Of a stretch of DNA of 64,000 nucleotides, positions 21,818 to 38,064 are shown piece after piece (the stretch's first letter is position 1; each line of letters starts with the position of its first letter). A program made the translations under genes and the position numbers. The notes under the pieces were generated by a model, which had not been told where the DNA came from, made no database searches, and was given only the letters and a program-made list of their open reading frames with translations. The DNA lies in NCBI RefSeq assembly GCF_001591165.1, contig NZ_BCUG01000021.1, positions 1-64,000 on the forward strand, in the 5' to 3' direction. The DNA comes from Thauera butanivorans NBRC 103042. GTDB taxonomy: Bacteria > Pseudomonadota > Gammaproteobacteria > Burkholderiales > Rhodocyclaceae.

Positions 21818-21872
21818 AGGCTGCGTCACGCTGAATCCTGCTCGTCTCGCTTGCGCGAGAACGGCCGAACGA

Positions 21873-21903: not shown

Positions 21904-21952
21904 TGCCGCAGCCAAGGCCACGGCGGAGATCATGCAGCGCTCAGTGCCCCGG

Positions 21953-23928: not shown

Positions 23929-23960
23929 GAAATGCGCAACAGCGATCGACGAGGCACGCC

Positions 23961-24881
23961 ATGAAGCTCTACTACGCCGACCATTTCGTGCTGCCGCTGC
24001 CGGAAGGCCATCGCTTTCCGATGGAGAAGTATTCGCGCCTGCGCGCCCGCCTGCTGGCCTGCGACGAATTCGACGAGATCGATTTCGTCGTGCCCGCCGC
24101 CGCCAGCGACGAGGAAATCCTGCGTGCGCACGACGCCGGCTATCTGGCGCGCGTCGTCGCCGGCACGCTGGATGCGGCAGAAGTCCGCCGCATCGGCTTT
24201 CCGTGGTCGGCGGCGATGGTCGAGCGTTCCCGCCGCTCGGCCGGCGCCACGCTCGCCGCCTGCCGCAGCGCACTGGCGGGCGACGGCGGCAGCGCCTGCG
24301 CCGCCAACCTGGCGGGCGGCACTCACCACGCCCACCGCGACTTCGGCTCAGGCTTCTGCGTCTTCAACGACGCCGCCATCGCCGCGCTGGCGATGCGCGC
24401 CGAAGGCCGGGTACGGCGCGTGGCGATCATCGACTGCGACGTACATCAGGGCGACGGTAGCGCCGCGATCCTCGCCGGCGAGCCGGAAGTCTTCACCTGC
24501 AGCCTGCACGGCGCGAAGAATTTCCCCTTCCGCAAGCAGACCAGCGACCTCGACATCGAGCTGCCTGACGACACCGGCGACGCCGCCTACCTGGCGGTAC
24601 TGGACCAGGCGCTGGCAACGACCTTCGCCCGCGCCCGCCCCGAACTCGTGATCTACCTCGCCGGCGCCGACCCCTATGCCGGCGACCGCCTCGGCCGCCT
24701 GGCGCTGAGCATCGACGGCCTGCGGGTGCGTGACGAGCGCGTGCTCGGCGCCTGCCACGGCGCCGGTGTGCCGGTCGCGATCGCGATGGCCGGCGGCTAC
24801 GCCGAGCCGATCGACGACACCGTCAGCATCCACTTCAACACCGTGACCACCGCCGCCCGCCTGCTGCGCAATGGCCGCTGA
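23961..24881 (+). CDS. Histone deacetylase-family amidohydrolase (AcuC/HDAC-like)
   Basis: Start MKLYYADHFVLPLPEGHRFPMEKY at 23961. GFCVFNDAAIA and IIDCDVHQGDG are HDAC zinc-site motifs. Confidence 0.8.
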   Translation: MKLYYADHFVLPLPEGHRFPMEKYSRLRARLLACDEFDEIDFVVPAAASDEEILRAHDAGYLARVVAGTLDAAEVRRIGFPWSAAMVERSRRSAGATLAACRSALAGDGGSACAANLAGGTHHAHRDFGSGFCVFNDAAIAALAMRAEGRVRRVAIIDCDVHQGDGSAAILAGEPEVFTCSLHGAKNFPFRKQTSDLDIELPDDTGDAAYLAVLDQALATTFARARPELVIYLAGADPYAGDRLGRLALSIDGLRVRDERVLGACHGAGVPVAIAMAGGYAEPIDDTVSIHFNTVTTAARLLRNGR

Positions 24882-24906
24882 ACGGCAGCCTGCGCAGGCA
24901 AGCGGG

Positions 24907-25761
24907 ATGCTGCTGATCGGCGTCGATTTCACCTCCGCACCACGCCGGGCCAAGCCGATCACTGCCGCTTTCGGCCGCCTCGCGGGCGAGGAGCCCCAAC
25001 AGAGGAGCGAACCGAGGGTCGAACTGACCGGCCTGGAAGCCTTCGACGACTGGCCCGCTTTCGAAGCCCTGCTCGCCCGTCCCGGCCCCTGGCTCGGCGC
25101 CTTCGATTTCCCCTTCGGCCTGCCGCGCGAAGCGGTCGTCGATCTCGGCTGGCCGCAAAGCTGGCCCGAGCTCGTCCGCCACTGCGCCGCCCTCGGCAAA
25201 GCCGGCTTCCGCGCCGCGCTCGACGCCTACCGTGAATCGCGCCCCGCCGGCCGCCGCTACGCGCACCGCGCCACCGACCTGCCGGCACGCTCGCATAGCC
25301 CGCTGAAGCTGGTGAATCCGCCGGTCGGGCTGATGTTCCTCGAAGGCGCCCCGCGCCTGCTCGCCGCCGGCCTCAGCCTGCCTGGCCTGCACACCGGCGA
25401 TCCGCAGCGGATCGCGCTGGAAGCCTATCCCGGCCTGCTTGCGCGCAGCATCACCCGCGACTCCTATAAAAGCGACGAAAAGCGCAAGCAGACGACCGAG
25501 CGCCGCAACGCCCGCGAGCGCATCCTTGCCGCTCTCGGCACGGGCCACCTGGCAAACGGCCTGCAACTGCAGTTCTCCCCCTCACAGGCCGGCAGCCTGA
25601 TCGACGACGCCAGCGGCGACCATCTCGATGCGGTACTTGCCCTGATGCAGGCAGCAGCCTGCGCACGCGCCGGCGCTCCCCGTTACGGCCTGCCGGCGCA
25701 GACCGATCCGCTCGAAGGCTGGATAGCCGGCACCCCCTATACCGGAAAACATCACATGTAA
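24907..25761 (+). CDS. DUF429 domain protein
   Basis: MLLIGVDFTSAPRRAKPIT resembles the DUF429 N-terminus. The ORF from 24871 overlaps the HDAC stop, so the likely start is ATG 24907. Confidence 0.6.
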   Translation: MLLIGVDFTSAPRRAKPITAAFGRLAGEEPQQRSEPRVELTGLEAFDDWPAFEALLARPGPWLGAFDFPFGLPREAVVDLGWPQSWPELVRHCAALGKAGFRAALDAYRESRPAGRRYAHRATDLPARSHSPLKLVNPPVGLMFLEGAPRLLAAGLSLPGLHTGDPQRIALEAYPGLLARSITRDSYKSDEKRKQTTERRNARERILAALGTGHLANGLQLQFSPSQAGSLIDDASGDHLDAVLALMQAAACARAGAPRYGLPAQTDPLEGWIAGTPYTGKHHM

Positions 25762-25784
25762 TCCCTTGCAGTATCACATGTGAT
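25751..25784 (+). promoter_or_regulatory. Putative operator: two ATCACATGT sites (25751 and 25773) 22 bp apart, the second inside the perfect palindrome ATCACATGTGAT, upstream of the yjfI-like cluster
   Basis: ATCACATGTAAT at 25751-25762 overlaps the DUF429 stop. ATCACATGTGAT at 25773-25784 is a perfect 12-bp palindrome. Both lie in the 40-bp gap before the cluster leader, next to a -10-like TAGAGT. Confidence 0.3.
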
Positions 25785-25990
25785 GCTCTAGAGTATGCCG
25801 CATGGAACGCAAGACATCAGCCTACTACCAACGCCTCCATCGCGCCCGTCTGCGTGAGCAAGGCCTGGTGAAGAAGGAGCTCTGGGTACTGCCCGAGCAC
25901 CTGGAAACGCTGTCCTCGATCGAAAAGAGCATGCGCCAGCCGCGGAGCGCGGCAGGTCTCGTACAACCAGGCCAGGAGAAGGAGAACACG

Positions 25991-26434
25991 ATGACGGAAA
26001 AAGCCCTGTGGACGGTCACCGCCCTGCACGACGCGCTGCGGAGCAACCCGCTGGTGGCTTCGGGCACGGCGCGGCTGGAACTGCTGGATGGCGCCGACCC
26101 CAGCCTGTTGCTGCAGATGCACGAATACGGCGACCTGCCGGTGTTCCTGGCGGTGGTCGGCGAGCACATCGTCGTCGAATCCCTGCTGTGGCCGGTGGCG
26201 CTGGTGCAGGACGTGGCGGTATTCAACGACCAGGTACTGCGCACCCACAAACTCTTCCCGCTGTCGAGCATCAGCATCGAGACCCTGCCCGACGGCGAGG
26301 AGGTCTACATCATGTTCGGCACCCTCAGCGCGGCATCGGGCCTGCCCGACGTGGTGCTCGAAATCGAGACCCTGGCCGACAACGTGATCCGCGCCACCGA
26401 AGCCTTCGAGCCGCAACTGCGCACGGCAGACTGA
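25991..26434 (+). CDS. DUF2170 (YjfI-like) protein
   Basis: MTEKALWTVTALHDA... is 147 aa, YjfI-family in size with a YIMFGTLSA motif. ATG 25991 is preceded by AGGAGAAGGAG. The ORF is open in-frame back to 25802 (63 extra codons), which could be a leader or an N-terminal extension. Confidence 0.65.
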   Translation: MTEKALWTVTALHDALRSNPLVASGTARLELLDGADPSLLLQMHEYGDLPVFLAVVGEHIVVESLLWPVALVQDVAVFNDQVLRTHKLFPLSSISIETLPDGEEVYIMFGTLSAASGLPDVVLEIETLADNVIRATEAFEPQLRTAD

Positions 26435-26471
26435 CGCAGCCAACCGACATTCAGACACCCGGAGAGCAAAG

Positions 26472-27164
26472 ATGAACATGTGGAGCAAGCTGGTGACCGC
26501 GCTGCGCGGCGGCGCACACGAATTGGGCGAAGCGGTGGTGGACGGCCAGGCGCTGCGCATTCTCGACCAGGAAATCCGCGACGCGGATGCCGACCTGCGG
26601 CGCTCGAAAGAAGCGCTGGCCGAGATCATGGCGAAGCAGAAGCTCGCCGAATCGCGCGTGAAGGAACAACAGGCCAGGATCGACGAATACGAGGACTACG
26701 CCATCAAGGCGCTCGAAGCGCAGGACGAGGCGCTGGCGCTGGAAGTCGCAGCCAAGATCGCCACGCTGGAAGCCAGCCGCAACGAGGAAAACGCAGTCGT
26801 TGAACAATACACCGCCAGCGTCGCCGACCTGCGCAAGTCCATCGCCCAGGCCGAGAGCCACATCAAGCGCCTGAAACAGCAGGTGGACATGGTGAAGGCG
26901 ACCGAAAGCGTGCAGCGCGCACAGGCCACCGTGGCCGAACGCTACAGCGGCGCGCAGACACGGGTGCAAACGGCGCTCGATTCGCTCGAACGCATCAAGC
27001 AGAAGCAGGCCGAACGCGGCGCGCGGATGCAGGCAGCGTCGGAGCTGGCACAGGAAAGCGGCGAGGATGCGCTCGACGCCAAACTGCGCAGCGCCGGCAT
27101 CTCCTCCGACACCGGCAGTGCCAACGCGGTGCTGGCACGGCTGAAGGAAAAGCGCGGCGCATGA
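26472..27164 (+). CDS. PspA/IM30-family protein (YjfJ-like)
   Basis: 230 aa, all-helical. LRILDQEIRDADADLRRSKEALAEIMAK...VDMVKATESVQRAQATVA...AVLARLKEKRGA closely parallels E. coli YjfJ and PspA/Vipp1. Confidence 0.85.
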   Translation: MNMWSKLVTALRGGAHELGEAVVDGQALRILDQEIRDADADLRRSKEALAEIMAKQKLAESRVKEQQARIDEYEDYAIKALEAQDEALALEVAAKIATLEASRNEENAVVEQYTASVADLRKSIAQAESHIKRLKQQVDMVKATESVQRAQATVAERYSGAQTRVQTALDSLERIKQKQAERGARMQAASELAQESGEDALDAKLRSAGISSDTGSANAVLARLKEKRGA

Positions 27165-27196
27165 GCTGTTGAAGACACCAGGCACGAGGGACGACC

Positions 27197-27835
27197 TTGG
27201 AAGCATTCCTGAACATTTCGCTTGCCTTTCCCACCGTGGTGTTCAGCTTCATGCTGGCCGTCATGGTGGTGTACTGGCTGATCGCGCTGCTGGGGCTGGC
27301 CGAGATCGAGCTGCTCGACAACCTCGCCCTGCCCGATGGCGACGGACTGCAACTGGAAGGGCTGGCGGGATTGCTGATGCGTCTGGGTCTGGCCGGCATT
27401 CCGCTGACCATCATCCTGACGGTGCTGGTGTTCTTCTGCTGGCTCATCAGCTACTACGCAGCCTGGTTGTTGTCTCCCCTGCTCGGCACAAGCGCAATGC
27501 GTTACCTGCTGGGCTCAGGCATCGCCGCCGGCGCCTTCCTCGCCGCGGTGCCGCTCACCTCGCTGGTGCTGCGGCCGGTGCGCGCCTTGCTGCGCAAGGC
27601 CGCGCCGCCAACCAGCAAAAGCCTGCTCGGCCAGGTCGGCGTGGTGCGCAGTCCCAGCGTGACCGCAGGGCAGGGCTACGCCTGGGTGGAAGACGGCGGC
27701 GCCGGCCTGATCCTGCAAGTGCGCAGTGCGACAGCAGAAGCTGAATTCCAGCGGGGTGCCCGGGTGATACTGATAGAATACGTCAATGACATGAATCTGT
27801 ACCGTGTCGTCGGCGAGGACGAATTCAGGGGCTGA
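27197..27835 (+). CDS. YqiJ-like inner membrane protein (DUF1449) with C-terminal NfeD-like OB-fold
   Basis: 212 aa. Multiple TM helices followed by a soluble segment, GQVGVVRSPSVTAGQGYAWVEDGGAGLILQVRSATAE...VILIEYVNDMNLYRVVG, typical of NfeD/YqiJ flotillin partners. Its stop TGA overlaps ATG 27835. Confidence 0.7.
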   Translation: MEAFLNISLAFPTVVFSFMLAVMVVYWLIALLGLAEIELLDNLALPDGDGLQLEGLAGLLMRLGLAGIPLTIILTVLVFFCWLISYYAAWLLSPLLGTSAMRYLLGSGIAAGAFLAAVPLTSLVLRPVRALLRKAAPPTSKSLLGQVGVVRSPSVTAGQGYAWVEDGGAGLILQVRSATAEAEFQRGARVILIEYVNDMNLYRVVGEDEFRG

Positions 27836-27903
27836 TGCCAGTCACATGCGACGAAACGTCCGGACTCCATGAACCAAGCAATGAACAAGCAGGGAGCATT
27901 TCA

Positions 27904-29967
27904 ATGAATCTGGCACAGGTCATGCCATTCCTGATCGGCGTGGGCACATTCGTACTGGTCGTGATCGGCCTTTTCGCGCTGTTCAAGGCCTTCTACATCA
28001 AGGTGCCGCAAGGCACGGCGCTGATCGTCAACGATCTGTCGGCGACACCCAAGGTGCATTTCACCGGCGCGCTGGTCTACCCGGTGATCTACAAGAAGGA
28101 GTTCATGCGGATCTCCCTGATCACGCTGGAAGTGGATCGGCGCGGCAAGGACGGCCTGATCTGCCGCGACAACATGCGCGCCGACATCACCGTGGCCTTC
28201 TACCTGCGCGTGAATGAAACCCAGGAAGACGTGCTGAAGGTCGCCAAGGCCATCGGCGTGGAGCGCGCATCGGACAAGGCGGCAGTCAACGAACTGTTCA
28301 ACGCCAAGTTCTCCGAGGCGCTGAAGACGGTCGGCAAGCAGATCGACTTCGTCAAGCTGTTCGAGAACCGCCAGGAATTCCGCGACCGCATCATCGAGGT
28401 GATCGGCAACGACCTCAACGGCTACGTCCTCGAGGACGTGGCGATCGACTACCTGGAGCAGACGCCAAAGGCCTCGCTCGACCCGCACAACATTCTCGAC
28501 GCCGAGGGCATCCGCAAGATCACCGAGCTGACCGCCGCGCAGAACATCATCACCAACGAACTCGAACGCAACGAGGAACTGGCGATCACCAAGAAGAACG
28601 TCGAGACGCGCGAAGCCATGCTCGCGCTGGAACGCCAGCAGGCCGACGCCGAAGCGCGGCAGAAGCGCGAAGTGGCGACCGTGCAGGCGCGCGAACAGGC
28701 CGAGATCCTGCGCGTGCAGGAAGAAGAACGCCTGAAGGCCGAGCAGGCGCGCATCCAGACCCAGGAACAGATCGACATCCGCGAGGAAAACGCCAACCGC
28801 GAAGTCGAGGTCGCCGAACAGAACCGCGAACGCGCCGTCGTCATCGAGAAGGAAAAGGTCGTGCGCGCGCAGCAACTGGAAATCGTCGCCCGCGAACGCG
28901 ACGTGGAACTCCAGCGCATCGAGAAGGAAAAGGCGCTGGAAGAGCAGCGCACCCACATCGCCAACGTGATCCGCGAACGCATCGCGGTCGAGAAGACCGT
29001 GGCAATCGAGGAAGAGCGCATCAAGGAAGTGCGCGAAGTGTCGGAAGCCGAACGCCTCAAGCAGGTGACGGTGCTGGCTGCGCAAGCCCAGGCGGAAGAG
29101 GAACTGGTGCGCCAGGTGAAGAAGGCCTCTGCCGACGAGGATTCGGCACGCCACCGCGCAGTGGAACTCACCGTGCTCGCGCAGGCCGAGCTGGAAGCTG
29201 CCGCCAAGCAGGCCGAAGCCAAGAAGAAGCTCGCCGAAGGCATCGAAGCCGAGCGCGCTGCACCAGGGCTGGCCGATGCACGCGTGCGCGAAGTGACTGC
29301 CGCGGCGATCGAGAAGGAAGGCATGGCCGCAGCGCATGTGACCGCCGAAAAACTGATCGCCGAAGCCAAGGGCGAGCAGGAAAAGGGCCTGGCGCAGGCG
29401 CGCGTCACCGAGGCACTGGCCGACGCCAAGGAGAAGGAAGGCCTGGCCGATGCCAAGGTCCTCGAAGAACGCCTGCTTGCCCAGGCGCGGGGCGAGAGCG
29501 AGCTCGGCGCAGCCAAGGCCAAGGTCACGCAGCAGGTCGGCGGAGCCGAGGCCGAAGTACTGCGCGAGAAGTTCATCGCCGAAGCCCAGGGCCTGGTGGA
29601 GAAATTCGCCGCGCTCGCCAGCCTCAGCGACAACGCCCGCGCCCACGAGGAATTCCGCATGCAGCTCGAGAAGAACTTCGAACAGGCGATCGCCGGCATC
29701 GATGCCAGCAAGCACATCGCCCGCGAGCAGGCCGAAGTGCTGTCGTCGGCGCTGTCCAAGGCCAACATCGACATCGTCGGCGGCGAAGGCGCCTTCTTCG
29801 ACCAGTTCGCCAAAGGCTTGTCGGTCGGCAAGTTCATCGAGGGCGTGGCCGGCAAGAGCCCCATCGTCGACGAGCTGCTGCAGCGCTTCACCAGCGGCGG
29901 CAAGGCAGACCTGCCCAGGGCGCTGGACCAGGCCACGGCGCCTGGGCAAGCCGACCGCAATTCGTGA
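27904..29967 (+). CDS. Flotillin-family SPFH/Band-7 protein (YqiK/FloT-like)
   Basis: N-terminal TM segment (LIGVGTFVLVVIGLFALF). SPFH domain (KVPQGTALIV...RADITVAFYLRVNE...). Long EA-rich coiled-coil flotillin tail. Start at ATG 27904 with GGGAG SD. An alternative coupled start is ATG 27835 (TGATG overlap with the upstream gene). Confidence 0.9.
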   Translation: MNLAQVMPFLIGVGTFVLVVIGLFALFKAFYIKVPQGTALIVNDLSATPKVHFTGALVYPVIYKKEFMRISLITLEVDRRGKDGLICRDNMRADITVAFYLRVNETQEDVLKVAKAIGVERASDKAAVNELFNAKFSEALKTVGKQIDFVKLFENRQEFRDRIIEVIGNDLNGYVLEDVAIDYLEQTPKASLDPHNILDAEGIRKITELTAAQNIITNELERNEELAITKKNVETREAMLALERQQADAEARQKREVATVQAREQAEILRVQEEERLKAEQARIQTQEQIDIREENANREVEVAEQNRERAVVIEKEKVVRAQQLEIVARERDVELQRIEKEKALEEQRTHIANVIRERIAVEKTVAIEEERIKEVREVSEAERLKQVTVLAAQAQAEEELVRQVKKASADEDSARHRAVELTVLAQAELEAAAKQAEAKKKLAEGIEAERAAPGLADARVREVTAAAIEKEGMAAAHVTAEKLIAEAKGEQEKGLAQARVTEALADAKEKEGLADAKVLEERLLAQARGESELGAAKAKVTQQVGGAEAEVLREKFIAEAQGLVEKFAALASLSDNARAHEEFRMQLEKNFEQAIAGIDASKHIAREQAEVLSSALSKANIDIVGGEGAFFDQFAKGLSVGKFIEGVAGKSPIVDELLQRFTSGGKADLPRALDQATAPGQADRNS

Positions 29968-30007
29968 CCCGCGGACAGACCCTGATCACACTGTGTCAGC
30001 AGTGAAA

Positions 30008-30100
30008 GTAGGATGGGTAGAGCGCAGCGAAACCCATCAATGGCAAAGGCAGAGTTTTTACCGATGTGATGGGTTTCGCCTTCGGCTCTACCCATCCTAC
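30008..30100. repeat. 93-bp imperfect inverted repeat (about 32-bp arms, 27-nt spacer) in the flotillin / giant-gene intergenic region
   Basis: Left arm gtaggatgggtagagc-gcag-cgaaacccatca (30008-30039). Right arm tgatgggtttcg-ccttcg-gctctacccatcctac (30067-30100). The arms are near-perfect reverse complements. Confidence 0.45.
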
Positions 30101-30241
30101 CCCGCCACTCCTGCAAAAGTATTCAGCAGGTAGGTCGCAGACTCCATACACGACACGTCACCCATCTCGCCGACACCCTCTTGCCTACCCCCATATCCGC
30201 CTTCAATTCAAGCAAGCCAATTCCCGAAGCGAAGAACGACG

Positions 30242-33200
30242 ATGTCCGACACCCTGCCCTCATCCGACTCCGCCCTCGTCGATCAGGCCGTCGCCAGCGG
30301 CGGCGCCTATGAAGTGCTGCGCAAGCGGCTGGCCGAACAAGGTGCCGGCTTGCGCGGCCTGGCGTCGCAGATCAACGCCGGCCGCATCGAGGAATTCGGC
30401 AGCAGCGGCATGGCCTTGCTGGGGCGCTTCCGCCTGCGCAGCGAGAACAACTGCGTCGGCCGCGACGTCGTGCAGGTCGGCGACACGCTGCTGTTCGGCT
30501 ACAACGTGTTCATCGGGCTGAAGCAGGAAACCCGCATCGAAGACGTGTTCTCGCTGTACCGGCTGGAAGAGACCGAGGCCGGCTACGACGTGGTGCCGCT
30601 CGACGCGGCGCAGAGTTTTCTCGGCATCACCAGCTTCGTGCAGGACTTCCGCGAGCTGTACACCTACTACAAGGACGCCCGCCTGCTGCAACTGGCGGTA
30701 CGCGACGGCAAGCTGCTGGCGAGCTTCCAGATCGGCGCGCGCATCACCGACATCCGCGTGTTCCGCTGGTCGGTGTCGCCCGATGGCCGCGAGGTGCGCT
30801 ACATCGACAACCGTGGCGAGCGCGACATCGCCCTGCCGGCACCGTTCGACTTCGAATGGATACGCGCCGGGCGCGACAGCGCGGTGCATGGCCGCCACCC
30901 GCACCTGAACATCCTCGACACCGTGTTCGTCGAGACCCTGGGCGGCGATCTCACCGTCAAGGTGGAAAACAACACCGAGGACGGCATGGGCATCTACCGC
31001 GAAGCGGTGGTGGACAAGACCCAGTCGCTCGACGACGCCACGGTGGAATACGCCCGCGTCGGCAGCCTGATCCTGCTCAAGATCCTGCCGTATCGCGAAG
31101 AGCAGTGGCGCTATCTGGTGTTCAACACGCTGACGCAGAAGGTGCAGCGCATCGACGCCATCGGCCTGGCCTGCATCCAGTTGCCGGAAGACCACGGCAT
31201 CATCTTCCCCGGCGGCTATTACTTGCAGAACGGCGAAAGCAAGGCCTTCGAGCAGCAGATGGAAGGCATGCGCTACCGCCGCAGCATCCGTTCGCCCAAC
31301 GGCGAAGACGTGCTGTACGTGTTCTACGAGCCGCACAGCGGCCGCATGGCGCTGTTCAACTACAACCTCATCGAGCGGCAGTTGCAGGCGCCGCTGATCG
31401 GCCACGGCTACGCGCGGCTGGAAGACGGGCGCATGGTGTTGTTCAGCTCCGAATCCGACGAGCCAACACGCATCCATCCGATGCAGGTGTGGCGCACGCC
31501 CTTCTTCAGCGAGGAGTTCGCCGCACGCCAGGCGCCCGGCGGCAACTTCTTCGGCCGCATCGGCAACGCCGAACTGGTGCGCGGCATCTCCGAACTGTTC
31601 AGCCTGGTGCGCGAGATCGGCGCCGCGGAAGTGTCGGTGCAGCGCTACCAGCGGCTCATCGACCAGGCGCGGCGGCTGTTCGACCGCTATCACTGGATGG
31701 CCGAAGCCTGCGACGGCGCGCTGGCCCGGACGCTGCACGAGATCGTCGCCTCGGGCGAAGCGGTGCTCGACGAATTCGAGAAAGTCGAAAGCATCCGCGC
31801 CGCCTCGGCGCGCGCAATGGCCGAAGCCGAAACCCGCCACAAGGCCTTGCTGACACAATTGCGCCAGCAGGATTGGAAGCACGTGCAGGACTACGTGCAG
31901 GCGCTGCAGCGCATCGCCGCCGAGCGCGGCCACCTGCTCAGCGTGCGCGACCTGCGCTACGTCGACACCGCGCGCATCGACGCGATGGAAAGCGAGCTGC
32001 TCGCCAGCCAGGCCAGCGTGGCCGCCGACACCGCCGCGTTCCTGTCCAGCGAGGAAGCGCTGCTGCCCTATGGCGAGCGCCTCGCCGAACTCGACCAGCA
32101 GGCGCAGAAGGCCGACACCGGCATGCAGCTGGACGAACCGCTGCAGGCCATGCAGGCGATGTCCGGCGAACTCGACATGCTGTCCGAACTGATGGCCACC
32201 CTCAAGGTGGATGACGCCACCCAGCGCACCCGTATCGTCGAGGCCATCTCGGCCATCTACGCGCGCCTCAACCAGGCCAAGGCGCGCGCCGAGCAGCGCC
32301 GCCGCGGCCTCGGCGCCAGCGAACGGGTGGCGCAGTTCGGCGCGCAGTTCTCGCTGTTCGGCCAGAGCATCGTCAGCGCCTTGGCGCTGGCGCAGGACCC
32401 GGAACGCTGCGACGAACAATTGTCGCGCCTGCTGATCCAGCTCGAAGAGCTGGAAAGCCAGTTCGGCGAGCACGAGGCCTTTCTTGGCGACATCGTCGCC
32501 AAGCGCGAAGAACTGCTGGAGAGCTTCGAAAGCCACAAGCAATCCTTGCTGGATGAGCGCCAGCGCAAGGCACAGTCGGTGCAGGACGCCGCCGTGCGCA
32601 TTGTCGATGGCCTGGGCCGGCGCACCGAGCGGCTGGCGACGCTGGACGAACTGAACGCCTTCTTCGCCGGCGATCCGCTGATCCTCAAGTTGCGCGAACT
32701 GGCCGAGCGGCTGCGCGAACTCAAGGACAGCGTCAAGGCCGACGACGTCGAGGCGTGCCTCAAGGGCGTGCGCGACCAGGCGGTACGCTCGCTGCGCGAC
32801 CGCAGCGAGCTGTTCGAGGGCGGCGGCAACGTGATCCGCCTGGGCCGCCACCGCTTCAGCGTCAACAACCAGGTGCTCGACCTCACGCTGATGCCGCGCG
32901 GCGACACGCTGTACCTGCATCTGGTCGGCACCGACTACATGGAAGCGCTGCACGACCCGCAACTGGCCGCGCTGCGGCCGTTCTGGGACGTGTCGCTGGC
33001 CTCAGAGTCGCCGCAACTGTACCGCGGCGAATATCTGGCGCTGCAAGTCATCGATGCCGCCGAGCGGCAGGCCGACGGCTGGGACCGCGACCAGTTGCAC
33101 CGCCTGCTGCTGCAACCCGAGGCGCTCGACCGCGCGCTGCGCGAATTCGCTGCGCCGCGCTACCGCGAAGGCTACGAGCGCGGCATCCACGACCACGACG

Positions 33201-35599
33201 CCGCGCGCATCCTGCGGGCCTTGGTGCCGATGCGCGAAGCCGCCGGCGTGCTCGCCACGGCACCGGACGCGCGGGCGCTGGCGGTGCTGTTCTGGGGGCA
33301 GCGCAACCAGGTGCTCAACCCCGAGGCCAGCGCCGCGCTGGCGCAATGGCCGGCGCGGGCCCGCCATGCAATAGACATGCGGCGGCTGTTCGGCAGCGCG
33401 GCTGCCCGCCGCAGCCTGGTGGACGACATGGCCGCGGCGCTGCGGACCTTCATCGAGCAGCACGCGCTCGCCATCGACCCCGCATTGAGTGCGCCGGCAG
33501 CCGACTACCTGCTGAGCGAGCTGGGTGATGCGGCTCCGCGTTTCAGCTTCACCGGGCAGGCGCGGCAACTGGTGGAAGCGCTGCAGGCACGGCTGGAGGC
33601 CGACGGGCGCTGGAGCGGTCTGCTGCAGGACTGGCGCCACAGCGCCGGCGACGGCCTGCCGCTGGCAGCGCGCTGGCAAAGCGCGCTGCAATGGGCGCAG
33701 GCACTGTGTGCCGCGTCCGGCGATGCCAACGCCGGGTTGGCCGCGCTCGGCGACTACGCCAGCGAGGCCGCCGCCTGGCTGGTGGCGGCCGAGGCCGTGC
33801 CGCACCGCTTCAGCAGCGTGGCCTTGCGCGCCAGCGTGACCGGCCTGCTCGGCGAGCACCCGCGCATCGTCGATGGCGCACTGGTGCTGGCGGTGGACGA
33901 CGTGGCACGGCGCGAGCACTGGCACCGCCACGAATTCATGCCGCAGCTGCAACGCTACCAGCAGTTGCGCCACGACATCCTGGTGCGCGAGCGCGAGGCG
34001 ATGCGGCTGGACGAGTTCAAGCCGCGCCCGCTCAGCAGCTTCGTGCGCAACAAGCTGATCAACGACGTCTATCTGGGCGTGATCGGCGACAACCTCGCCA
34101 AACAGATGGGCACCGCCGGCAGCAACAAGCGCAGCGACCTGATGGGCCTGCTGATGATGATCTCGCCACCCGGCTACGGCAAGACCACGCTGATGGAATA
34201 CGTGGCGCACCGCCTCGGGCTGATCTTCATGAAGATCAACGGCCCGGCGCTGGGCCACGAGGTGCGCTCGCTCGACCCGGCCCAGGCACCCGACGCCACC
34301 TCGCGCCAGGAGCTGGAAAAGCTCAACCTGGCGCTGGAAATGGGCAACAACGTGATGCTGTATGTGGACGACATCCAGCACACCCACCCGGAATTCCTGC
34401 AGAAGTTCATCTCGCTGTCGGACGGCACGCGCCGCATCGAGGGTGTATGGAAAGGGCGCACGCGCACCTACGACATGCGCGGCAAGAAATTCTGCGTGGT
34501 GATGGCCGGCAACCCCTACACCGAATCCGGCGAGGTCTTCAAGATTCCCGACATGCTCGCCAACCGCGCCGACATCTACAACCTCGGCGACGTGCTGGGC
34601 GGCATGGAGGAAGTGTTCAAACTCAGCTACATCGAGAACAGCCTCACCAGCAACCCGGTGCTGGCGCCGCTGGCTACGCGCGACCTGAACGATCTCTACC
34701 GCATCATCGACAAGCTGCAAGGCAAGGAATTTTCCGCCAACGCGCTCAGCCACGGCTACAGTGCCGCCGAACTGCGCGACATCGAAACCACGCTGCAGCG
34801 CATGCTGCAGGTGCGCGAAGTGGTCTATCGCATCAACCAGCAATACATCGCCAGCGCCGCCCAGGCCGAGGCCTACCGCACGGAGCCGCCGTTCAAGCTG
34901 CAAGGCTCCTACCGCAACATGAACAAGCTAGCGGAAAAGATCTCGGCGGTAATGAACGACGCCGAGCTCCAGCAATTGCTGGCCGACCACTACGTCGGCG
35001 AGGCCCAACTGCTCACCAGCGGGGCGGAGGAAAACCTGCTCAAGCTCGCCGAACTTCGCGGCAGCCTGAGAGGCGACGATGCCGTTCGCTGGGCACAGAT
35101 CAAGCGTGACTACCTGCGCAACAAGGCCATCGGCGGCAGCGACGCCGACGTCGCCGGCAAGATCGTCGTGCAATTGATGGACCTGGTCGAAGCCACCCGC
35201 CACACCGCCGCACTGGCCGAACAGGCGGCCACTCGGCCCGAGGAAGCACTACCCTGGGCGGAAATCCTCGCTGCCCTGCTGCAATCGGCCAAGGCACAGA
35301 CCCAGCAGGCCCGCCACGTCGCCGCGCTGGCCCGTGCGAGAACCAGCCAGCCGCTACAGACCCTCGCTACCTTGCTCCAGCAATCCCTGGAACCGATCCG
35401 GACCCACCTGGACGAAAGCCGCAAGCAGCAGCTCGGCCTTCACCGCGTATTGCTGGAAATCGCCGAACGCCTGCGCGTGGTCGCCGAGGCCGAAGCATCC
35501 GGCGCCACCCAAGACAGCGAGCGCAAGCTGCGCTTGCTGGATCGCGCCTTCGCCCGCATGCTCGAAGAAGACACACACCCTGGAGAGAATGCGGGTTGA
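30242..35599 (+). CDS. Giant multidomain protein (1785 aa): N-terminal domain of unknown function, long helical/coiled-coil middle, single C-terminal AAA+ ATPase module (AAA_5/MoxR/dynein-like)
   Basis: Walker A MMISPPGYGKTTLMEY (about aa 1310). Walker B NVMLYVDDIQ. Sensor/arginine region FCVVMAGNPYTESGEVFKIPDMLANRADIYNL resembles AAA_5-type modules. Even codon usage over 5.3 kb. The antisense ORFs are Arg/Ala/Gly-rich noise. Confidence 0.8.
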   Translation: MSDTLPSSDSALVDQAVASGGAYEVLRKRLAEQGAGLRGLASQINAGRIEEFGSSGMALLGRFRLRSENNCVGRDVVQVGDTLLFGYNVFIGLKQETRIEDVFSLYRLEETEAGYDVVPLDAAQSFLGITSFVQDFRELYTYYKDARLLQLAVRDGKLLASFQIGARITDIRVFRWSVSPDGREVRYIDNRGERDIALPAPFDFEWIRAGRDSAVHGRHPHLNILDTVFVETLGGDLTVKVENNTEDGMGIYREAVVDKTQSLDDATVEYARVGSLILLKILPYREEQWRYLVFNTLTQKVQRIDAIGLACIQLPEDHGIIFPGGYYLQNGESKAFEQQMEGMRYRRSIRSPNGEDVLYVFYEPHSGRMALFNYNLIERQLQAPLIGHGYARLEDGRMVLFSSESDEPTRIHPMQVWRTPFFSEEFAARQAPGGNFFGRIGNAELVRGISELFSLVREIGAAEVSVQRYQRLIDQARRLFDRYHWMAEACDGALARTLHEIVASGEAVLDEFEKVESIRAASARAMAEAETRHKALLTQLRQQDWKHVQDYVQALQRIAAERGHLLSVRDLRYVDTARIDAMESELLASQASVAADTAAFLSSEEALLPYGERLAELDQQAQKADTGMQLDEPLQAMQAMSGELDMLSELMATLKVDDATQRTRIVEAISAIYARLNQAKARAEQRRRGLGASERVAQFGAQFSLFGQSIVSALALAQDPERCDEQLSRLLIQLEELESQFGEHEAFLGDIVAKREELLESFESHKQSLLDERQRKAQSVQDAAVRIVDGLGRRTERLATLDELNAFFAGDPLILKLRELAERLRELKDSVKADDVEACLKGVRDQAVRSLRDRSELFEGGGNVIRLGRHRFSVNNQVLDLTLMPRGDTLYLHLVGTDYMEALHDPQLAALRPFWDVSLASESPQLYRGEYLALQVIDAAERQADGWDRDQLHRLLLQPEALDRALREFAAPRYREGYERGIHDHDAARILRALVPMREAAGVLATAPDARALAVLFWGQRNQVLNPEASAALAQWPARARHAIDMRRLFGSAAARRSLVDDMAAALRTFIEQHALAIDPALSAPAADYLLSELGDAAPRFSFTGQARQLVEALQARLEADGRWSGLLQDWRHSAGDGLPLAARWQSALQWAQALCAASGDANAGLAALGDYASEAAAWLVAAEAVPHRFSSVALRASVTGLLGEHPRIVDGALVLAVDDVARREHWHRHEFMPQLQRYQQLRHDILVREREAMRLDEFKPRPLSSFVRNKLINDVYLGVIGDNLAKQMGTAGSNKRSDLMGLLMMISPPGYGKTTLMEYVAHRLGLIFMKINGPALGHEVRSLDPAQAPDATSRQELEKLNLALEMGNNVMLYVDDIQHTHPEFLQKFISLSDGTRRIEGVWKGRTRTYDMRGKKFCVVMAGNPYTESGEVFKIPDMLANRADIYNLGDVLGGMEEVFKLSYIENSLTSNPVLAPLATRDLNDLYRIIDKLQGKEFSANALSHGYSAAELRDIETTLQRMLQVREVVYRINQQYIASAAQAEAYRTEPPFKLQGSYRNMNKLAEKISAVMNDAELQQLLADHYVGEAQLLTSGAEENLLKLAELRGSLRGDDAVRWAQIKRDYLRNKAIGGSDADVAGKIVVQLMDLVEATRHTAALAEQAATRPEEALPWAEILAALLQSAKAQTQQARHVAALARARTSQPLQTLATLLQQSLEPIRTHLDESRKQQLGLHRVLLEIAERLRVVAEAEASGATQDSERKLRLLDRAFARMLEEDTHPGENAG

Positions 35600-36174
35600 G
35601 CCGCATCAGCAAGACGATGAAACCCCTGCTTCCCGAATGGCTCCACCCCTGGCTCGAATTCATCACGCTCGGCCTGCAGGTCATGCTGATCCTGCTCGCC
35701 GCCTGGGTGCTGAACATGCTGGTCCGGCGCATCGTCCGCCGCCTGAGCGAGCGCTACAACCTGCCTCCCGAGCTGACCCTCATCGTGCGCCGAGGCATCG
35801 CATTCATCATCTATGCCGGCGCGCTGCTGACGATCCTGGACCGCTTCGGCGTGTCGGGCACCGTGCTGTGGACCGCCTTCACCGGCTTTGCCGCAGTCGC
35901 CGCCGTCGCCTTCTTCGCCGCCTGGAGCGTGCTGTCCAACATCTTCTGCACGCTGCTGATCTTCACCACCCGGCCCTTCCGCCTCCACGATCACATCGAG
36001 GTGATCGAGAACGGCGAGAAGCCCGGACTGAAGGGACAGGTGACCGACATCAACCTGATCTACACCACGCTGCACGAGCGCCTGCCCGACGGCGGCGACA
36101 CCGTGCTGCACATCCCCAACAGCCTGTTCTTCCAGCGCGCGATCCGCCGCTGGCGCAGCCTGCCGCCGCTTTGA
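35596..36174 (+). CDS. Short MscS-family mechanosensitive channel protein (192 aa)
   Basis: AAWSVLSNIFCTLLIFTTRPFRLHDHIEVIENGEKPGLKGQVTDINLIYTTLHERLPDGGDTVLHIPNSLFF matches the MscS pore helix TM3 plus beta-domain. TTG start 35596 overlaps the giant gene's TGA (TTGA). An alternative ATG is at 35617. Confidence 0.8.
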   Translation: MSRISKTMKPLLPEWLHPWLEFITLGLQVMLILLAAWVLNMLVRRIVRRLSERYNLPPELTLIVRRGIAFIIYAGALLTILDRFGVSGTVLWTAFTGFAAVAAVAFFAAWSVLSNIFCTLLIFTTRPFRLHDHIEVIENGEKPGLKGQVTDINLIYTTLHERLPDGGDTVLHIPNSLFFQRAIRRWRSLPPL

Positions 36175-36197
36175 GCCAGACTGTCCGGCGGACGTGA

Positions 36198-36536
36198 TCA
36201 AGCCTTGCGCACGAACTCCGACTTCAGCTTCATCGCGCCAATGCCGTCGATCTTGCAGTCGATGTCGTGGTCGCCGTCGATCAGGCGGATGTTCTTGACC
36301 TTGGTGCCGACCTTCACCACCAGCGACGAGCCCTTCACCTTCAGGTCCTTGATCACGGTGACGCTGTCGCCGTCCTGCAGCACGTTGCCATTGGCGTCCT
36401 TGAACACCTTTTCGGCCTCGCCCGCTTCCTCCGCGGCTTGCGGCCACTCGTGCGCACATTCGGGGCAGACGTAGTTGATGCCGTCCTCGTAGGTGTATTC
36501 GGAGCTGCATTCGGGACACTTGGGCAGACTGCTCAT
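36198..36536 (-). CDS. phnA: PhnA-family zinc-ribbon protein (YjdC-like)
   Basis: [31 protein letters not shown]...[36 protein letters not shown] is near-identical in pattern to E. coli PhnA. 112 aa. Confidence 0.85.
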
Positions 36537-36547
36537 GCTTCTTTCCT

Positions 36548-37270
36548 TTATTCGATCGTGATCCGCATCGACGGCGCCGGCAGGCCCCTGCGCTTGCGCT
36601 CGGCCTCGATCAGTTTGGCGATGTCGGTGTTGCGGTTCTGCAGCGCCCAGGCGTCGGCGGACAGGCCGGCGTCGTTCAGCGCGTTCAGGTCGGTCTCCGG
36701 CACTGCGAGCAGGCGGCGCACCACGCCGATATGGCCGTTGCGCGCGGCAAGCATCAGCGGCGTGGCACGGTTCGGTGCCCGGGCATTGACGTCCGCGCCG
36801 GCGGCGAACAGTGCATCGAGCATGGATTCGCGGCCCTCGAAGGCGGCGTAGTGCAGCGGCGCCCAACCGTCGTGATTCACTTTGGCACCGGCCTTCAGCA
36901 GCGCGCGGACGACATCGTCGTAGCCGCCCAGCACCGCCAGCATCAGCGCCGAATCGCCGCTGGGGTTTTGCTGGTCGATCGGCACGCCGCGCTGCAGCAA
37001 GGCTTCGACCGTGGCGGCCTGGCCTTCGCGTGCGGCGAGGATCAGCAAGGTGTTGCCGCTGGCATCGACGCTGTTCGGATCGATGCCGCCGTCGATCAGC
37101 CTGGCGAGGCCTTTCGCATCGCCCAGCACGGCGGCGTTGCGCGCATCGTCGAAGGTGCCGGCCGCATGCGCGCTCAGGCTGAGGGTGGCGATGGCGGCCG
37201 CGGCGAGCAGGCGGCGGACCGAATGCTTGCGATTCTGGCGCAGGGAGGTTTCAGGCTGGTCTTTGTGCAT
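36548..37270 (-). CDS. Ankyrin-repeat protein with signal peptide
   Basis: [18 protein letters not shown] signal peptide, then repeated ANK motifs ([48 protein letters not shown]). Start ATG 37270. Confidence 0.8.
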
Positions 37271-38027: not shown

Positions 38028-38064
38028 CGGGAAAACCGGAAAGGATGGATCGGGTCGGCAGCGT

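What the first reader, a model, noticed from the sequence alone, without database searches (positions are those of the whole stretch)
25751..36174. Tightly coupled cluster YjfI-like / PspA(IM30) / YqiJ-NfeD / flotillin / 1785-aa AAA+ protein / mini-MscS: a candidate undescribed membrane-remodelling or envelope-stress module
Six co-directional genes sit behind a palindromic operator, with minimal or overlapping junctions:
- TGATG overlap between the YqiJ-like stop and an in-frame flotillin start.
- TTGA overlap between the giant gene's stop and the MscS-like start.

The cluster fuses two E. coli operons that are separate there. It has the first two genes of yjfIJKLMC (DUF2170 plus the PspA paralogue YjfJ) and the yqiJK NfeD-flotillin pair. 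It then adds a giant AAA+ protein and a mechanosensitive-channel-like protein.

PspA/IM30/Vipp1 proteins are bacterial ESCRT-III-like membrane remodellers. Flotillins with NfeD organise membrane microdomains. MscS responds to membrane tension. An AAA+ motor encoded with them suggests an ATP-driven machine acting on a membrane scaffold, by analogy with Vps4 acting on ESCRT-III. The ATPase here is AAA_5/MoxR-like, not Vps4-like, so any such role would be non-orthologous. I cannot place the giant protein in a characterised family from sequence alone.
Basis: partly seen in the sequence, partly recalled or inferred. Interest (0 to 1): 0.85.

Follow-up and report, generated by a model that had tools for sequence, protein, structure and literature searches.

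The report
Known bac PspA–flotillin–AAA+ stress operon
This is the Thauera butanivorans copy of the already described 'bac' operon of Pseudomonas aeruginosa (a PspA-type membrane protein, a flotillin pair and a giant ATPase), so the cluster is not new, but its first gene seems to carry an overlooked DNA-binding repressor domain with conserved operator sites.

Summary
The six co-directional ORFs and the palindromes upstream are real. The cluster is not undescribed. Genes 1-5 are orthologues of P. aeruginosa bacABCDE (BacA NCBIfam equivalog above cut-off; BacE 67% identical over 98%). That operon was shown by RT-PCR and is de-repressed in a bacA mutant (Wallart 2024). The operon type (CesT-like/PspA + band-7/flotillin + YqiJ-like + novel AAA+) is catalogued by Ravi et al. 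2024, who also draw the ESCRT-III/Vps4 analogy.

The sixth gene, a short MscS-like protein, is not a member. It follows BacE in 0 of 75 loci from other genera. In two sister Thauera genomes it sits at the same site without any bac genes. Window 25732-35614 is a 9.9-kb cassette indel.

Both claimed start/stop overlaps come from longest-ORF starts. BacC-BacD-BacE are linked in 74/74 loci, BacA-BacB in only 51/74. The ATPase is therefore tied to the flotillin pair more tightly than to PspA.

New here: BacA has a strongly conserved 47-aa N-terminal domain that is missing from the crystal structure. Two ATYACATGTRAT palindromes overlap a σ70-like promoter placed for a leaderless mRNA. A conserved internal SD+ATG is also present. 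Together these suggest direct autorepression and two isoforms.

The parts
25732..35614 (+). 9.9-kb cassette (promoter/operators + bacABCDE), present in T. butanivorans and Thauera sp. SDU_THAU2 and absent at the same site in Thauera sp. Sel9 and T. linaloolentis
   Evidence: blastn: L088 1-6886 matches window 18789-25731, and L088 6999-14558 matches window 35615-43199. Boundary sequences. Same arrangement in L090.
25751..25762 (.). Distal operator-like palindrome O1, ATCACATGTAAT. It overlaps the stop codon of the upstream DUF429 gene.
   Evidence: Conserved position upstream of bacA in other genera.
25766..25771 (+). -35-like hexamer TTGCAG
   Evidence: Read from sequence. TTGNNN lies 16-18 nt upstream of the -10 in 31 of 51 homologous upstream regions.
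25773..25784 (.). Proximal operator-like perfect palindrome O2, ATCACATGTGAT, inside the 17-nt promoter spacer
   Evidence: The proximal site lies at -26 to -30 from the ATG in 37 loci.
25789..25794 (+). -10-like hexamer TAGAGT, 7 nt before the bacA ATG. There is no SD, so a leaderless mRNA is inferred.
   Evidence: TANNNT ends 6-7 nt before the ATG in 40 of 51 upstream regions.
25802..26434 (+). bacA (210 aa): conserved N-terminal small-repressor-like domain (aa 1-47, nt 25802-25942), variable linker, and DUF2170/CesT-like domain (aa 70-204, nt 26009-26413)
   Evidence: - NCBIfam NF050185 BacA: 315 bits against a cut-off of 300.
- Pfam DUF2170.
- PDB 8q8o aligns only from residue 65.
- N-domain conservation.
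- AF2 model and Foldseek: TM 0.95 to 8q8o.
25973..25993 (+). Internal SD-like AGGAGAAGGAG followed by an in-frame ATG (Met64). This is a candidate second start that would give a DUF2170-only isoform.
   Evidence: 40 of 46 homologues have GGAG/GAGG/AGGA at -16 to -4 of the linker Met, against 16% at other ATGs.
26472..27164 (+). bacB (230 aa), PspA/IM30 family, YjfJ subfamily
   Evidence: Pfam PF04012 E=2.9e-53. 35% identity to E. coli YjfJ, E=7e-33. 63% identity to P. aeruginosa BacB.
27197..27835 (+). bacC (212 aa, TTG start), multi-TM protein with a C-terminal beta domain, a remote YqiJ / short-NfeD relative
   Evidence: No Pfam or PDB sequence hit. Profile against E. coli YqiJ: hhalign probability 93.7%. 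50% identity to P. aeruginosa BacC.
27904..29967 (+). bacD (687 aa from the homologue-supported start; the longest ORF starts at 27835), TM + SPFH + long coiled coil, YqiK-type flotillin (PaFlo3 orthologue)
   Evidence: BLASTP against E. coli YqiK E=5e-41. Start revision. 78% identity to P. aeruginosa BacD. PMC13086221.
30008..30100 (+). 93-nt hairpin in the bacD-bacE intergenic region
   Evidence: arms of 16 + 13 nt, 100% complementary; -61.4 kcal/mol; z = -8.
30242..35599 (+). bacE (1785 aa): DUF3686 (nt 30350-31693), DUF7902 (nt 32054-32305), AAA+ core (about nt 34109-34621; Walker A GYGKT, Walker B VDD)
   Evidence: - Pfam.
- 67% identity over 98% to the P. aeruginosa protein.
- Invariant motifs.
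- AF2 + Foldseek give a generic AAA+ fold, with RuvB, NorQ and ClpB on top.
35617..36174 (+). Short MscS-like gene (185 aa from ATG 35617). It is an adjacent resident gene and not a conserved part of the module. It may be read through from bacE in this genome.
   Evidence: - Pfam MS_channel_2nd: 32.4 bits against a cut-off of 20.2.
- Family of roughly 185-240-aa proteins, mostly 185-205 aa.
- Contexts without bac genes.
- 0 of 75 loci from other genera have it after BacE.

Best explanation
**What it is.** Window 25751-35599 is the Thauera butanivorans orthologue of the bacABCDE envelope/membrane-stress operon. This is the BAC system of P. aeruginosa, and it matches the 'CesT-like/PspA + flotillin + YqiJ-like + novel AAA+' operon class of Ravi et al. 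It sits on a 9.9-kb cassette that lies next to, but does not include, a resident short MscS-like gene.

**Shown here**
- Orthology and gene order.
- The cassette indel relative to sister Thauera genomes.
- Invariant C-D-E linkage and facultative A-B linkage.
- A conserved BacA N-terminal domain.
- Conserved tandem palindromes over a σ70-like promoter.

**Shown by others in P. aeruginosa**
- Co-transcription of the operon.
- 6-13-fold accumulation of BacB-F in a bacA mutant.
- Induction by osmotic shock and by phage infection.
- Biofilm and virulence phenotypes.

**Inferred mechanism**
1. Full-length BacA dimerises through its CesT-like domain.
2. Its N-terminal small-repressor-like domains bind the two ATYACATGTRAT operators. 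These are 21-25 bp apart, and one lies in the promoter spacer. Binding shuts off a leaderless bacA-E transcript.
3. An internal SD+ATG also yields a DNA-binding-less BacA.
4. Binding of the PspA-like BacB to the CesT-like domain would couple repression to the pool of free BacB, in the way PspA controls PspF.
5. Once induced, BacB coats stressed inner membrane. BacC/BacD build a cytoplasmic-face SPFH scaffold. The giant AAA+ BacE, always encoded with BacCD, uses ATP to assemble, remodel or recycle that scaffold and, where present, BacB polymers.
For: **Orthology**
- BacA equivalog scores above cut-off.
- NCBI names this exact protein BacA of T. butanivorans.
- BacE is 67% identical over 98% coverage to the P. 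aeruginosa protein.
- The P. aeruginosa locus has the same order A-B-C-D-E. All five products match at 50-78% identity.

**Synteny**
- 74 of 74 loci have C-D-E, 51 of 74 have A-B-C-D-E, and 24 of 75 have a PLD gene after E. None of 75 has the MscS-like gene.

**Cassette**
-.

**BacA N-domain**
- It is nearly invariant across orders and absent from 8q8o and from E. coli YjfI.
- It gives weak hits to small repressor families: PF11455 MazE-like in 19 of 27 sequences, best E 0.001; NF041430 'plasmid repression protein F' in 22 of 27 sequences, best E 2e-6.

**Operators**
- 82 of 85 strict motif hits in 1.28 Mb lie within 110 bp upstream of bacA. 34 of 51 loci have two or more. Spacing is 21-25 bp.
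- Only 1 hit occurs in 635 kb of loci without BacA.
- Lineages with a divergent N-domain have a divergent site, TTTCATGTAA.

**Promoter and internal start**
- Promoter geometry.
- Internal SD.

**Literature**
- Operon structure and de-repression in the bacA mutant (PMC10948618).
- BacA-BacB interaction predicted at 0.98 (PMC13092808).
- PA3728-PA3732 induced by phage infection (PMC12041424).
- RsmA target.
Against: - No experiment on this organism exists, and co-transcription is not tested here.
- DNA binding by BacA is inferred only from co-occurrence and weak family similarity. The AF2 model of the N-domain has low confidence (pLDDT 50-73; the presumed strand is unstructured). No PDB relative was found.
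- Wallart et al. propose a σ54 promoter and a chaperone-type mechanism instead.
- The bacA::Tn effect could involve transposon read-out.
- BacE's substrate is unknown. Its AAA+ clade is unresolved (TM 0.28-0.38 to RuvB, NorQ and ClpB). Its Walker B is DD rather than DE.
- SPFH single mutants of P. aeruginosa, including paFlo3 = bacD, show only slight phenotypes (PMC13086221).
Confidence: 0.85

Rival explanations
1. One reading: a six-gene, previously undescribed machine that includes the MscS-like channel. In it the AAA+ protein acts on PspA polymers as a non-orthologous Vps4.
For: - All six ORFs are co-directional. In this genome only 17 nt and no terminator-like site separate bacE from the MscS-like gene.
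- The same adjacency occurs in Thauera sp. SDU_THAU2.
- PspA is an ESCRT-III relative (established knowledge). Ravi et al. also raise the Vps4 analogy.
Against: - The system is already described.
- The MscS-like gene follows BacE in 0 of 75 loci from other genera.
- It keeps its place in sister Thauera genomes that lack the cassette.
- 17 of 74 loci have C-D-E without any PspA.
- Pfam finds no MIT domain, and no Vps4 structure ranks among the 50 best structural matches.
Confidence: 0.08
2. A σ54/PspF-type Psp regulon, as Macé 2008 and Wallart 2024 proposed. Transcription would start from an RpoN promoter upstream of the short bacA ORF. BacA would act only as a CesT-like chaperone or partner-switching regulator, without binding DNA.
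For: - A putative -24/-12 site was reported for P. aeruginosa.
- BacA's C-terminal domain has the T3SS-chaperone/YbjN fold.
- A BacA-BacB interaction is predicted.
Against: - No site matching the σ54 consensus better than 7 of 11 was found, and none sits at a conserved position in six loci.
- No enhancer-binding protein is encoded next to the operon.
- 'Upstream of the short ORF' is in fact coding sequence for the conserved N-domain.
- A σ70-like -35/-10 with embedded palindromes is conserved across orders.
Confidence: 0.08
3. The cassette is an anti-phage defence island, for example an abortive-infection or membrane-acting system.
For: - Patchy presence/absence within one genus.
- Copies on Pseudomonas megaplasmids.
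- PA3728-PA3732 are up-regulated by phage infection.
- A PLD-family gene accompanies the operon in a third of loci.
Against: - No PADLOC model matches any product apart from coiled-coil noise on PspA.
- Induction also occurs on osmotic shock and in biofilms.
- The components are classic membrane-maintenance families.
- No nuclease, NTase, TIR or similar effector is present in the core.
Confidence: 0.05
4. The giant protein is a DNA-repair ATPase, as its database name says, and its position next to membrane genes is incidental.
For: - The Pfam DUF3686 description is 'ATPase involved in DNA repair', and NCBI names it 'DNA repair ATPase'.
- The best structural matches include RuvB.
Against: - The name is unsupported by any paper found (zero papers mention DUF3686).
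- Linkage to BacC-BacD holds in 74 of 74 loci.
- The RuvB similarity is generic AAA+ (TM 0.28-0.38, about 17% identity).
Confidence: 0.03

Closest known systems
P. aeruginosa BAC system, bacABCDEF (PA3732-PA3727 / PA14_16140-16200; Macé 2008, Wallart 2024)
   Same: - Same five genes in the same order (DUF2170 BacA, PspA-like BacB, YqiJ-like BacC, flotillin BacD, DUF3686-AAA+ BacE) at 50-78% identity.
- Same two palindromes and promoter geometry upstream of bacA.
   Different: - The sixth gene differs. It is a PLD-family protein in P. aeruginosa. Here there is no PLD gene and an unrelated resident MscS-like gene follows.
- The published BacA work used the 146-aa short form, which lacks the N-terminal domain.
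CesT/Tir-PspA + TM-band-7-flotillin + novel AAA+ + YqiJ/YuaF operon class (Ravi et al. 2024, mSystems)
   Same: An exact architectural match, including the optional PLD gene and the abbreviated flotillin/YqiJ/AAA+ versions.
   Different: The passages of that paper retrieved here do not mention the BacA N-terminal domain, the operators, the leaderless or internal-start arrangement, or this locus.
E. coli yjfIJ(KLMC) and yqiJK operons
   Same: Homologous proteins: YjfI E=7e-24, YjfJ E=7e-33, YqiK E=5e-41, YqiJ profile probability 93.7%.
   Different: - E. coli YjfI lacks the N-terminal domain and has no ACATGT palindromes upstream.
- The annotated E. coli yjfI-yjfC and yqiJK stretches hold no giant AAA+ gene, and the two pairs lie about 1.2 Mb apart.
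E. coli Psp system (pspF / pspABCDE)
   Same: A PspA-family effector under negative feedback. Induced by envelope stress in P. aeruginosa.
   Different: - No PspF, PspB or PspC gene lies in or next to the cluster, and there is no conserved σ54 promoter.
- The regulator is a different protein, BacA.
ESCRT-III / Vps4 (archaeal CdvB/CdvC)
   Same: A PspA-superfamily polymer is encoded with an AAA+ ATPase.
   Different: - BacE has no MIT domain, and Vps4 structures are not among its best structural matches.
- BacE is linked more strictly to flotillin than to PspA.
HflK/C-FtsH and other SPFH-NfeD assemblies (QmcA-YbbJ)
   Same: An SPFH scaffold plus an NfeD-like partner encoded with an AAA+ enzyme. 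C-D-E are invariably linked.
   Different: - Pfam detects no protease domain in BacE, and no membrane-spanning stretch is evident in its sequence (read by eye, not computed).
- The scaffold is YqiK-type.
Small plasmid/antitoxin repressors (NCBIfam NF041430 'plasmid repression protein F'; Pfam PF11455 MazE-like)
   Same: - The BacA N-domain shares the R-rich helix / G-L-x-K-x-x-x-W-h-h-P strand / helix pattern and gives sub-threshold hits.
- It pairs with tandem palindromic operators.
   Different: - All hits are below the curated cut-offs.
- The domain is always fused to DUF2170; the short hits look like fragments.
- The fold is not confirmed.

Membership tests
bac (BAC) operon of P. aeruginosa | BacA: DUF2170/YjfI-family first gene | tested here: met
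   NCBIfam equivalog NF050185: 315 bits against a cut-off of 300, full length. TM 0.95 and 50% identity to crystal structure 8q8o.
bac (BAC) operon of P. aeruginosa | BacB PspA/IM30, BacC, BacD (SPFH) and BacE (DUF3686 AAA+) orthologues in the order A-B-C-D-E on one strand | tested here: met
   tblastn identities of 63, 50, 78 and 67% to the P. aeruginosa locus L001, in the same order.
bac (BAC) operon of P. aeruginosa | BacF (PLD-family sixth gene) | tested here: not met
   No PLD homologue occurs in any of the window's six ORFs or by tblastn. PLD is present in only 24 of 75 loci, so it is an optional member.
bac (BAC) operon of P. aeruginosa | Single transcript; negative control by BacA | not testable with these tools
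   Shown by RT-PCR and proteomics only in PA14. Here the only evidence is the conserved promoter and operator architecture.
PspA/IM30 (ESCRT-III superfamily) | PspA_IM30 domain over the full length | tested here: met
   PF04012 E=2.9e-53, residues 3-228.
Classical Psp regulon | σ54 promoter with a PspF-type activator; PspB/PspC partners | tested here: not met
   No conserved σ54-like site. No such genes lie in or next to the cluster.
SPFH/flotillin (YqiK type) | N-terminal TM + SPFH domain + coiled coil, homologous to YqiK | tested here: met
   BLASTP E=5e-41, 29% identity over 458 aa including the SPFH part. The Pfam HMMs give no hit.
YqiJ / short NfeD | Multi-TM N-terminal part + C-terminal NfeD-like beta domain, encoded directly upstream of the SPFH gene | tested here: met
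   hhalign probability 93.7%, E=1.9e-7 over 139 columns against E. coli YqiJ. Pairwise BLAST is not significant. The position is conserved in 74 of 74 loci.
Vps4-type AAA ATPase | MIT domain + classical-clade AAA module | tested here: not met
   Pfam finds only weak AAA/AAA_5 hits and no MIT domain. The top Foldseek matches are RuvB, NorQ, ClpB and MCM at TM 0.28-0.38.
AAA+ ATPase (general) | Walker A, Walker B, sensor 1, Arg finger; αβα core + lid | tested here: met
   - Invariant GYGKT, VDD, N1424 and R1442.
- AAA+ fold in the AF2 model, 224 PDB matches at E<=0.001.
- The Walker B acidic pair is DD, not DE.
MscS family (gene 6) as a member of the module | Conserved linkage to the other genes | tested here: not met
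   0 of 75 loci from other genera. Orthologues in Thauera, Azoarcus and Xanthomonas lie in unrelated contexts. The Pfam MscS beta-domain itself scores above cut-off.
RHH / MazE-like / plasmid repressor F (BacA N-domain) | Significant match to the family model, or a confirmed fold and DNA binding | tested here: inconclusive
   - PF11455 best E 0.001 (19 of 27 sequences); NF041430 best E 2e-6 (22 of 27). All are below the curated cut-offs.
- The AF2 monomer gives helix-coil-helix at low pLDDT.
- No PDB sequence relative.
Known anti-phage defence systems | Match to a PADLOC model | tested here: not met
   the only hits are coiled-coil noise on BacB.

The most novel reading that the evidence does not exclude
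BacA may not be merely a CesT-like chaperone regulated through σ54. It may be a two-isoform, DNA-binding autorepressor.
- A leaderless mRNA from a σ70-type promoter would give full-length BacA. Its overlooked 47-aa N-terminal domain would bind two ATYACATGTRAT operators.
- A conserved internal SD+ATG would give the 16-kDa form, which is the one that was crystallised. That form lacks the DNA-binding domain and could titrate the repressor or chaperone BacB.
- This would supply the missing regulatory logic of a PspA-flotillin-AAA+ system present in many Proteobacteria.
- It would also imply that the ATPase's constant partner is the flotillin scaffold rather than PspA.
Probability: 0.5. Interest if true: 0.5.

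Novelty: new member of a known kind. Interest (0 to 1): 0.35.

Why it matters
The cluster needs no new category. It is an unstudied member of the BAC / PspA-flotillin-AAA+ operon family, which is linked to biofilm formation, swarming and virulence in P. aeruginosa.

What remains valuable:
- The biochemical role of the giant AAA+ protein and its relation to bacterial ESCRT-III-like and flotillin scaffolds are still unknown.
- The comparative data here give directly testable predictions:
  1. a defined operator and promoter;
  2. a DNA-binding domain missing from the published BacA structure and constructs;
  3. two BacA isoforms;
  4. flotillin/NfeD, rather than PspA, as the invariant partner of the ATPase.
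- The analysis also corrects the idea that a mechanosensitive channel belongs to the system.

Tried and rejected
- **Pfam on genes 3 and 4.** No hits even at E=10. PDB sequence searches were also empty. Identity had to come from direct comparison with E. coli YqiJ and YqiK.
- **PADLOC.** No defence-system match.
- **Literature on DUF3686.** Zero papers. A search for 'UrfF / repression protein F' found nothing relevant. Brencic & Lory 2009 is not held.
- **PDB profile search with the BacA N-domain.** Only chance-level hits.
- **phmmer of the N-domain against 1.84 billion representatives.** 65 hits at E<=0.001. Those inspected were BacA-like or apparent fragments, and no independent stand-alone family emerged.
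- **AF2 of full-length BacA.** The N-domain has low confidence, so its fold is not settled.
- **AF2 + Foldseek of the BacE AAA+ module.** This confirms a generic AAA+ fold but cannot assign a clade.
- **σ54 consensus scan.** Nothing conserved.
- **Rfam on 25-37 kb.** Only sub-threshold chance matches.
- **RSF1010.** The record is not in the plasmid collection, so no direct comparison with its repressor F was possible.
- **Target-site duplication at the cassette borders.** None seen. The 112-bp intergenic spacer of sister genomes is replaced.
Full report
**1. What is in the sequence**

The + strand between 25.8 and 36.2 kb carries six co-directional ORFs.
- Pfam assigns DUF2170 to ORF1 and PspA_IM30 to ORF2.
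- It assigns DUF3686 + DUF7902 + a weak AAA/AAA_5 module to the 1785-aa ORF5.
- It assigns the MscS beta-domain to ORF6.
- ORF3 and ORF4 get no hit, even at E=10.

- ORF4 against YqiK: E=5e-41 over 458 residues, including the SPFH part.
- A profile of ORF3 homologues against YqiJ: hhalign probability 93.7%, although pairwise BLAST is not significant.
- ORF1 against YjfI: E=7e-24. ORF2 against YjfJ: E=7e-33.

The window comes from Thauera butanivorans. ORF1 is 100% identical to a protein that NCBI names 'biofilm formation regulator BacA [Thauera butanivorans]'.

**2. The cluster is already described**

NCBIfam's equivalog model for BacA of Pseudomonas matches ORF1 end to end and above its cut-off. 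ORF5 is 67% identical over 98% of its length to the P. aeruginosa 'DNA repair ATPase'. That gene lies in the locus DUF2170-PspA-213 aa-688 aa-1746 aa-PLD, which is PA3732-PA3727 / PA14_16140-16200.

- Macé et al. 2008 named this the biofilm-associated cluster.
- Wallart et al. 2024 showed by RT-PCR that bacABCDEF is one operon. They also showed that BacB-F accumulate 6-13-fold in a bacA mutant, and they solved a BacA crystal structure.
- Ravi et al. [quoted passage not shown] They propose ATP-dependent membrane remodelling by analogy with Snf7/Vps4.
- BacD is PaFlo3 in a 2026 study of SPFH proteins.
- PA3728-PA3732 are co-induced by phage infection. They are also co-induced in another proteome study.
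- The operon is in the RsmA regulon.

The description 'candidate undescribed module' is therefore wrong.

**3.

The best 80 loci were analysed. Results by tblastn with the window's proteins:
- BacC-BacD-BacE are together in 74 of 74 loci with enough flank.
- BacA-BacB precede them in 51 loci, BacB alone in 6, and neither in 17 (for example Stenotrophomonas and Xanthomonas).
- A PLD gene follows BacE in 24 of 75 loci.
- The MscS-like gene follows BacE in 0 of 75.

The constant partner of the giant ATPase is thus the flotillin/NfeD-like pair, and PspA is a frequent add-on. In that respect the closer analogy is an SPFH scaffold with an AAA+ enzyme (HflK/C-FtsH; established knowledge) rather than ESCRT-III/Vps4. 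Neither relation is shown.

**4. The MscS-like gene is a bystander**

ORF6 belongs to a large family of short MscS-like proteins, listed at 184-278 aa and mostly 185-205 aa. Their contexts in Thauera linaloolentis, Thauera sp. Sel9, Azoarcus and Xanthomonas contain no bac genes.

Thauera sp. Sel9 is collinear with the window on both sides. L088 1-6886 matches window 18789-25731, and L088 6999-14558 matches window 35615-43199. Window 25732-35614 (operators + bacABCDE, 9.9 kb) therefore replaces a 112-bp spacer. Thauera sp. SDU_THAU2 has the cassette at the same place.

In T. butanivorans the MscS-like gene has lost its native upstream spacer. It may be read through from bacE, but this is a lineage-specific accident.

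**5. Junctions**

- Homologues of BacD start at the equivalent of Met24 (ATG 27904, with AGGGAG 8 nt upstream). The TGATG 'overlap' at 27835 is therefore an artefact of the longest ORF.
- MscS-like homologues start at MKPLL (ATG 35617), so the TTGA 'overlap' is likewise unsupported.
- The bacD-bacE gap is 274 nt and contains a 93-nt hairpin (-61 kcal/mol, z = -8).

**6. New observations on BacA and its promoter**

*The N-terminal domain*
- The crystal structure 8q8o and the old PAO1/PA14 annotation (16 kDa) start at residue 65 of ORF1.
- The first 47 residues (M-x-x-K-S-S-A-H-Y-Q-R-x-x-R-x-R-L-R-E-Q-G-L-V-K-K-E-V-W-I-L-P-E...) are the best conserved part of the protein. This holds across Pseudomonadales, Xanthomonadales, Burkholderiales, Cellvibrionales and Gilliamella.
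- A variable linker follows them. E. coli YjfI lacks this domain.
- Individually weak but recurrent hits link it to small repressors. Pfam MazE-like PF11455 hits 19 of 27 sequences, best E 0.001. NCBIfam 'plasmid repression protein F' hits 22 of 27, best E 2e-6. From memory, not tested here, the RSF1010 F protein is a 68-aa autorepressor that binds paired operators.

*The operators*
- Upstream of bacA nearly every locus has two copies of ATYACATGTRAT, 21-25 bp apart. The proximal copy lies at -26 to -30 from the ATG.
- 82 of 85 strict matches in 1.28 Mb lie in these 110-bp stretches.
- Loci without BacA have 1 match in 635 kb.
- Lineages with a divergent N-domain (STLHQRAYRERMR...) carry a divergent site, TTTCATGTAA. 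So does the pQBR103 copy.

*The promoter*
- The palindromes bracket a TTGaca-like -35 and fill the spacer before a TAnnnT -10.
- The -10 ends 6-7 nt before the ATG, and there is no SD (40 of 51 regions). This geometry fits a leaderless mRNA.
- In the window: O1 25751-25762, -35 25766-25771, O2 25773-25784, -10 25789-25794, ATG 25802. The motif is found nowhere else in the 64 kb.
- No σ54-like element is conserved.

*The internal start*
- The otherwise variable linker keeps an in-frame Met 4-8 residues before the DUF2170 domain. It is preceded by GGAG/GAGG/AGGA in 40 of 46 homologues, against 16% at other ATGs.
- The conservation is at nucleotide rather than amino-acid level. This is the old annotated start and the region reported as RsmA-bound.

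**7. Mechanism**

*Shown*
- Orthology, synteny and cassette structure (this work).
- Operon status, de-repression in bacA::Tn, stress induction and phenotypes (P. aeruginosa literature).

*Inferred, with moderate confidence*
- Full-length BacA is the operator-binding autorepressor.
- Its CesT-like domain provides dimerisation and binds BacB. The interaction is predicted at 0.98 and reported as unpublished data. This would tie repression to the free BacB pool.
- The short isoform modulates this circuit.

*Inferred, with low confidence*
- BacB coats stressed membrane.
- BacC/BacD form a cytoplasmic-face SPFH scaffold.
- BacE remodels or recycles that scaffold.

BacE has invariant Walker A, sensor 1 and arginine residues and a DD Walker B. 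Its AF2 model is a generic AAA+ fold, closest to RuvB, NorQ and ClpB at low TM. No solved relative covers the 1200-residue N-terminal part.

**8. Verdict**

- The finding is a new member of a known kind.
- The BacA regulatory architecture was not mentioned in any paper read here and is testable.

Noticed in passing
window 30008-30100 (bacD-bacE intergenic region, 29968-30241): A 93-nt near-perfect hairpin (arms 16 + 13 nt, 100% complementary; -61.4 kcal/mol; z = -8). It has no T-run, occurs once in the window and matches no Rfam family. D-E gaps in other genera are also long and often strongly folded (P. aeruginosa: 149 nt, -78.6 kcal/mol). It may be an intercistronic attenuator or an mRNA-stability element.
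   Followed up: partly
L092 (pQBR103, NC_009444.1 84437-97641): A megaplasmid carries a composite operon: YjfI-family protein with the N-domain, PspA, rhomboid, DUF2491, DUF350, DUF1190, glutathionylspermidine-synthase-like protein, BacC-like protein, SPFH protein and 'DNA repair ATPase'. This is the E. coli-type yjfIJKLMC set fused to bacCDE, with TTTCATGTAA/TTACATGTAA sites upstream. YjfI-family genes with the same N-terminal domain also occur on P. syringae and P. amygdali megaplasmids; their neighbouring genes were not examined.
   Followed up: partly
window 25973-25993: An internal SD-like AGGAGAAGGAG plus an in-frame ATG (Met64) lies in the bacA linker. It is conserved at nucleotide level in 40 of 46 homologues. 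It corresponds to the start used in the old PAO1/PA14 annotation and in crystal structure 8q8o.
   Followed up: yes
window 34364-34372 (BacE residues 1375-1377): The Walker B motif reads hhhhDD (VDD) instead of DE. The two aspartates are invariant in all 30 homologues aligned. This could mean slow or regulated hydrolysis.
   Followed up: no
window 8765-16175, - strand: A low-GC stretch (0.53-0.57 against about 0.65) encodes a type IV pilus minor-pilin/PilY1 cluster: a 1416-aa PilY1, PilW, a GspH/FimT-like protein and a ComP-like pilin. In the closest bac-carrying relative (Rhodocyclaceae MAG, L002) the bac operon lies directly downstream of pilW-pilX-pilY1.
   Followed up: no
window 24871-25761: The upstream DUF429-family gene ends inside the inserted DNA. 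Its last 10 codons and its stop codon (TAA within operator O1) differ from the orthologue in Thauera sp. Sel9, so the cassette insertion rewrote its C-terminus.
   Followed up: partly
L051 (MAG Gammaproteobacteria) 5650-6290: Here bacA appears disrupted, with the N-domain reading frame separated from the DUF2170 part, while both operators are retained. It may be a pseudogene or an assembly error.
   Followed up: no
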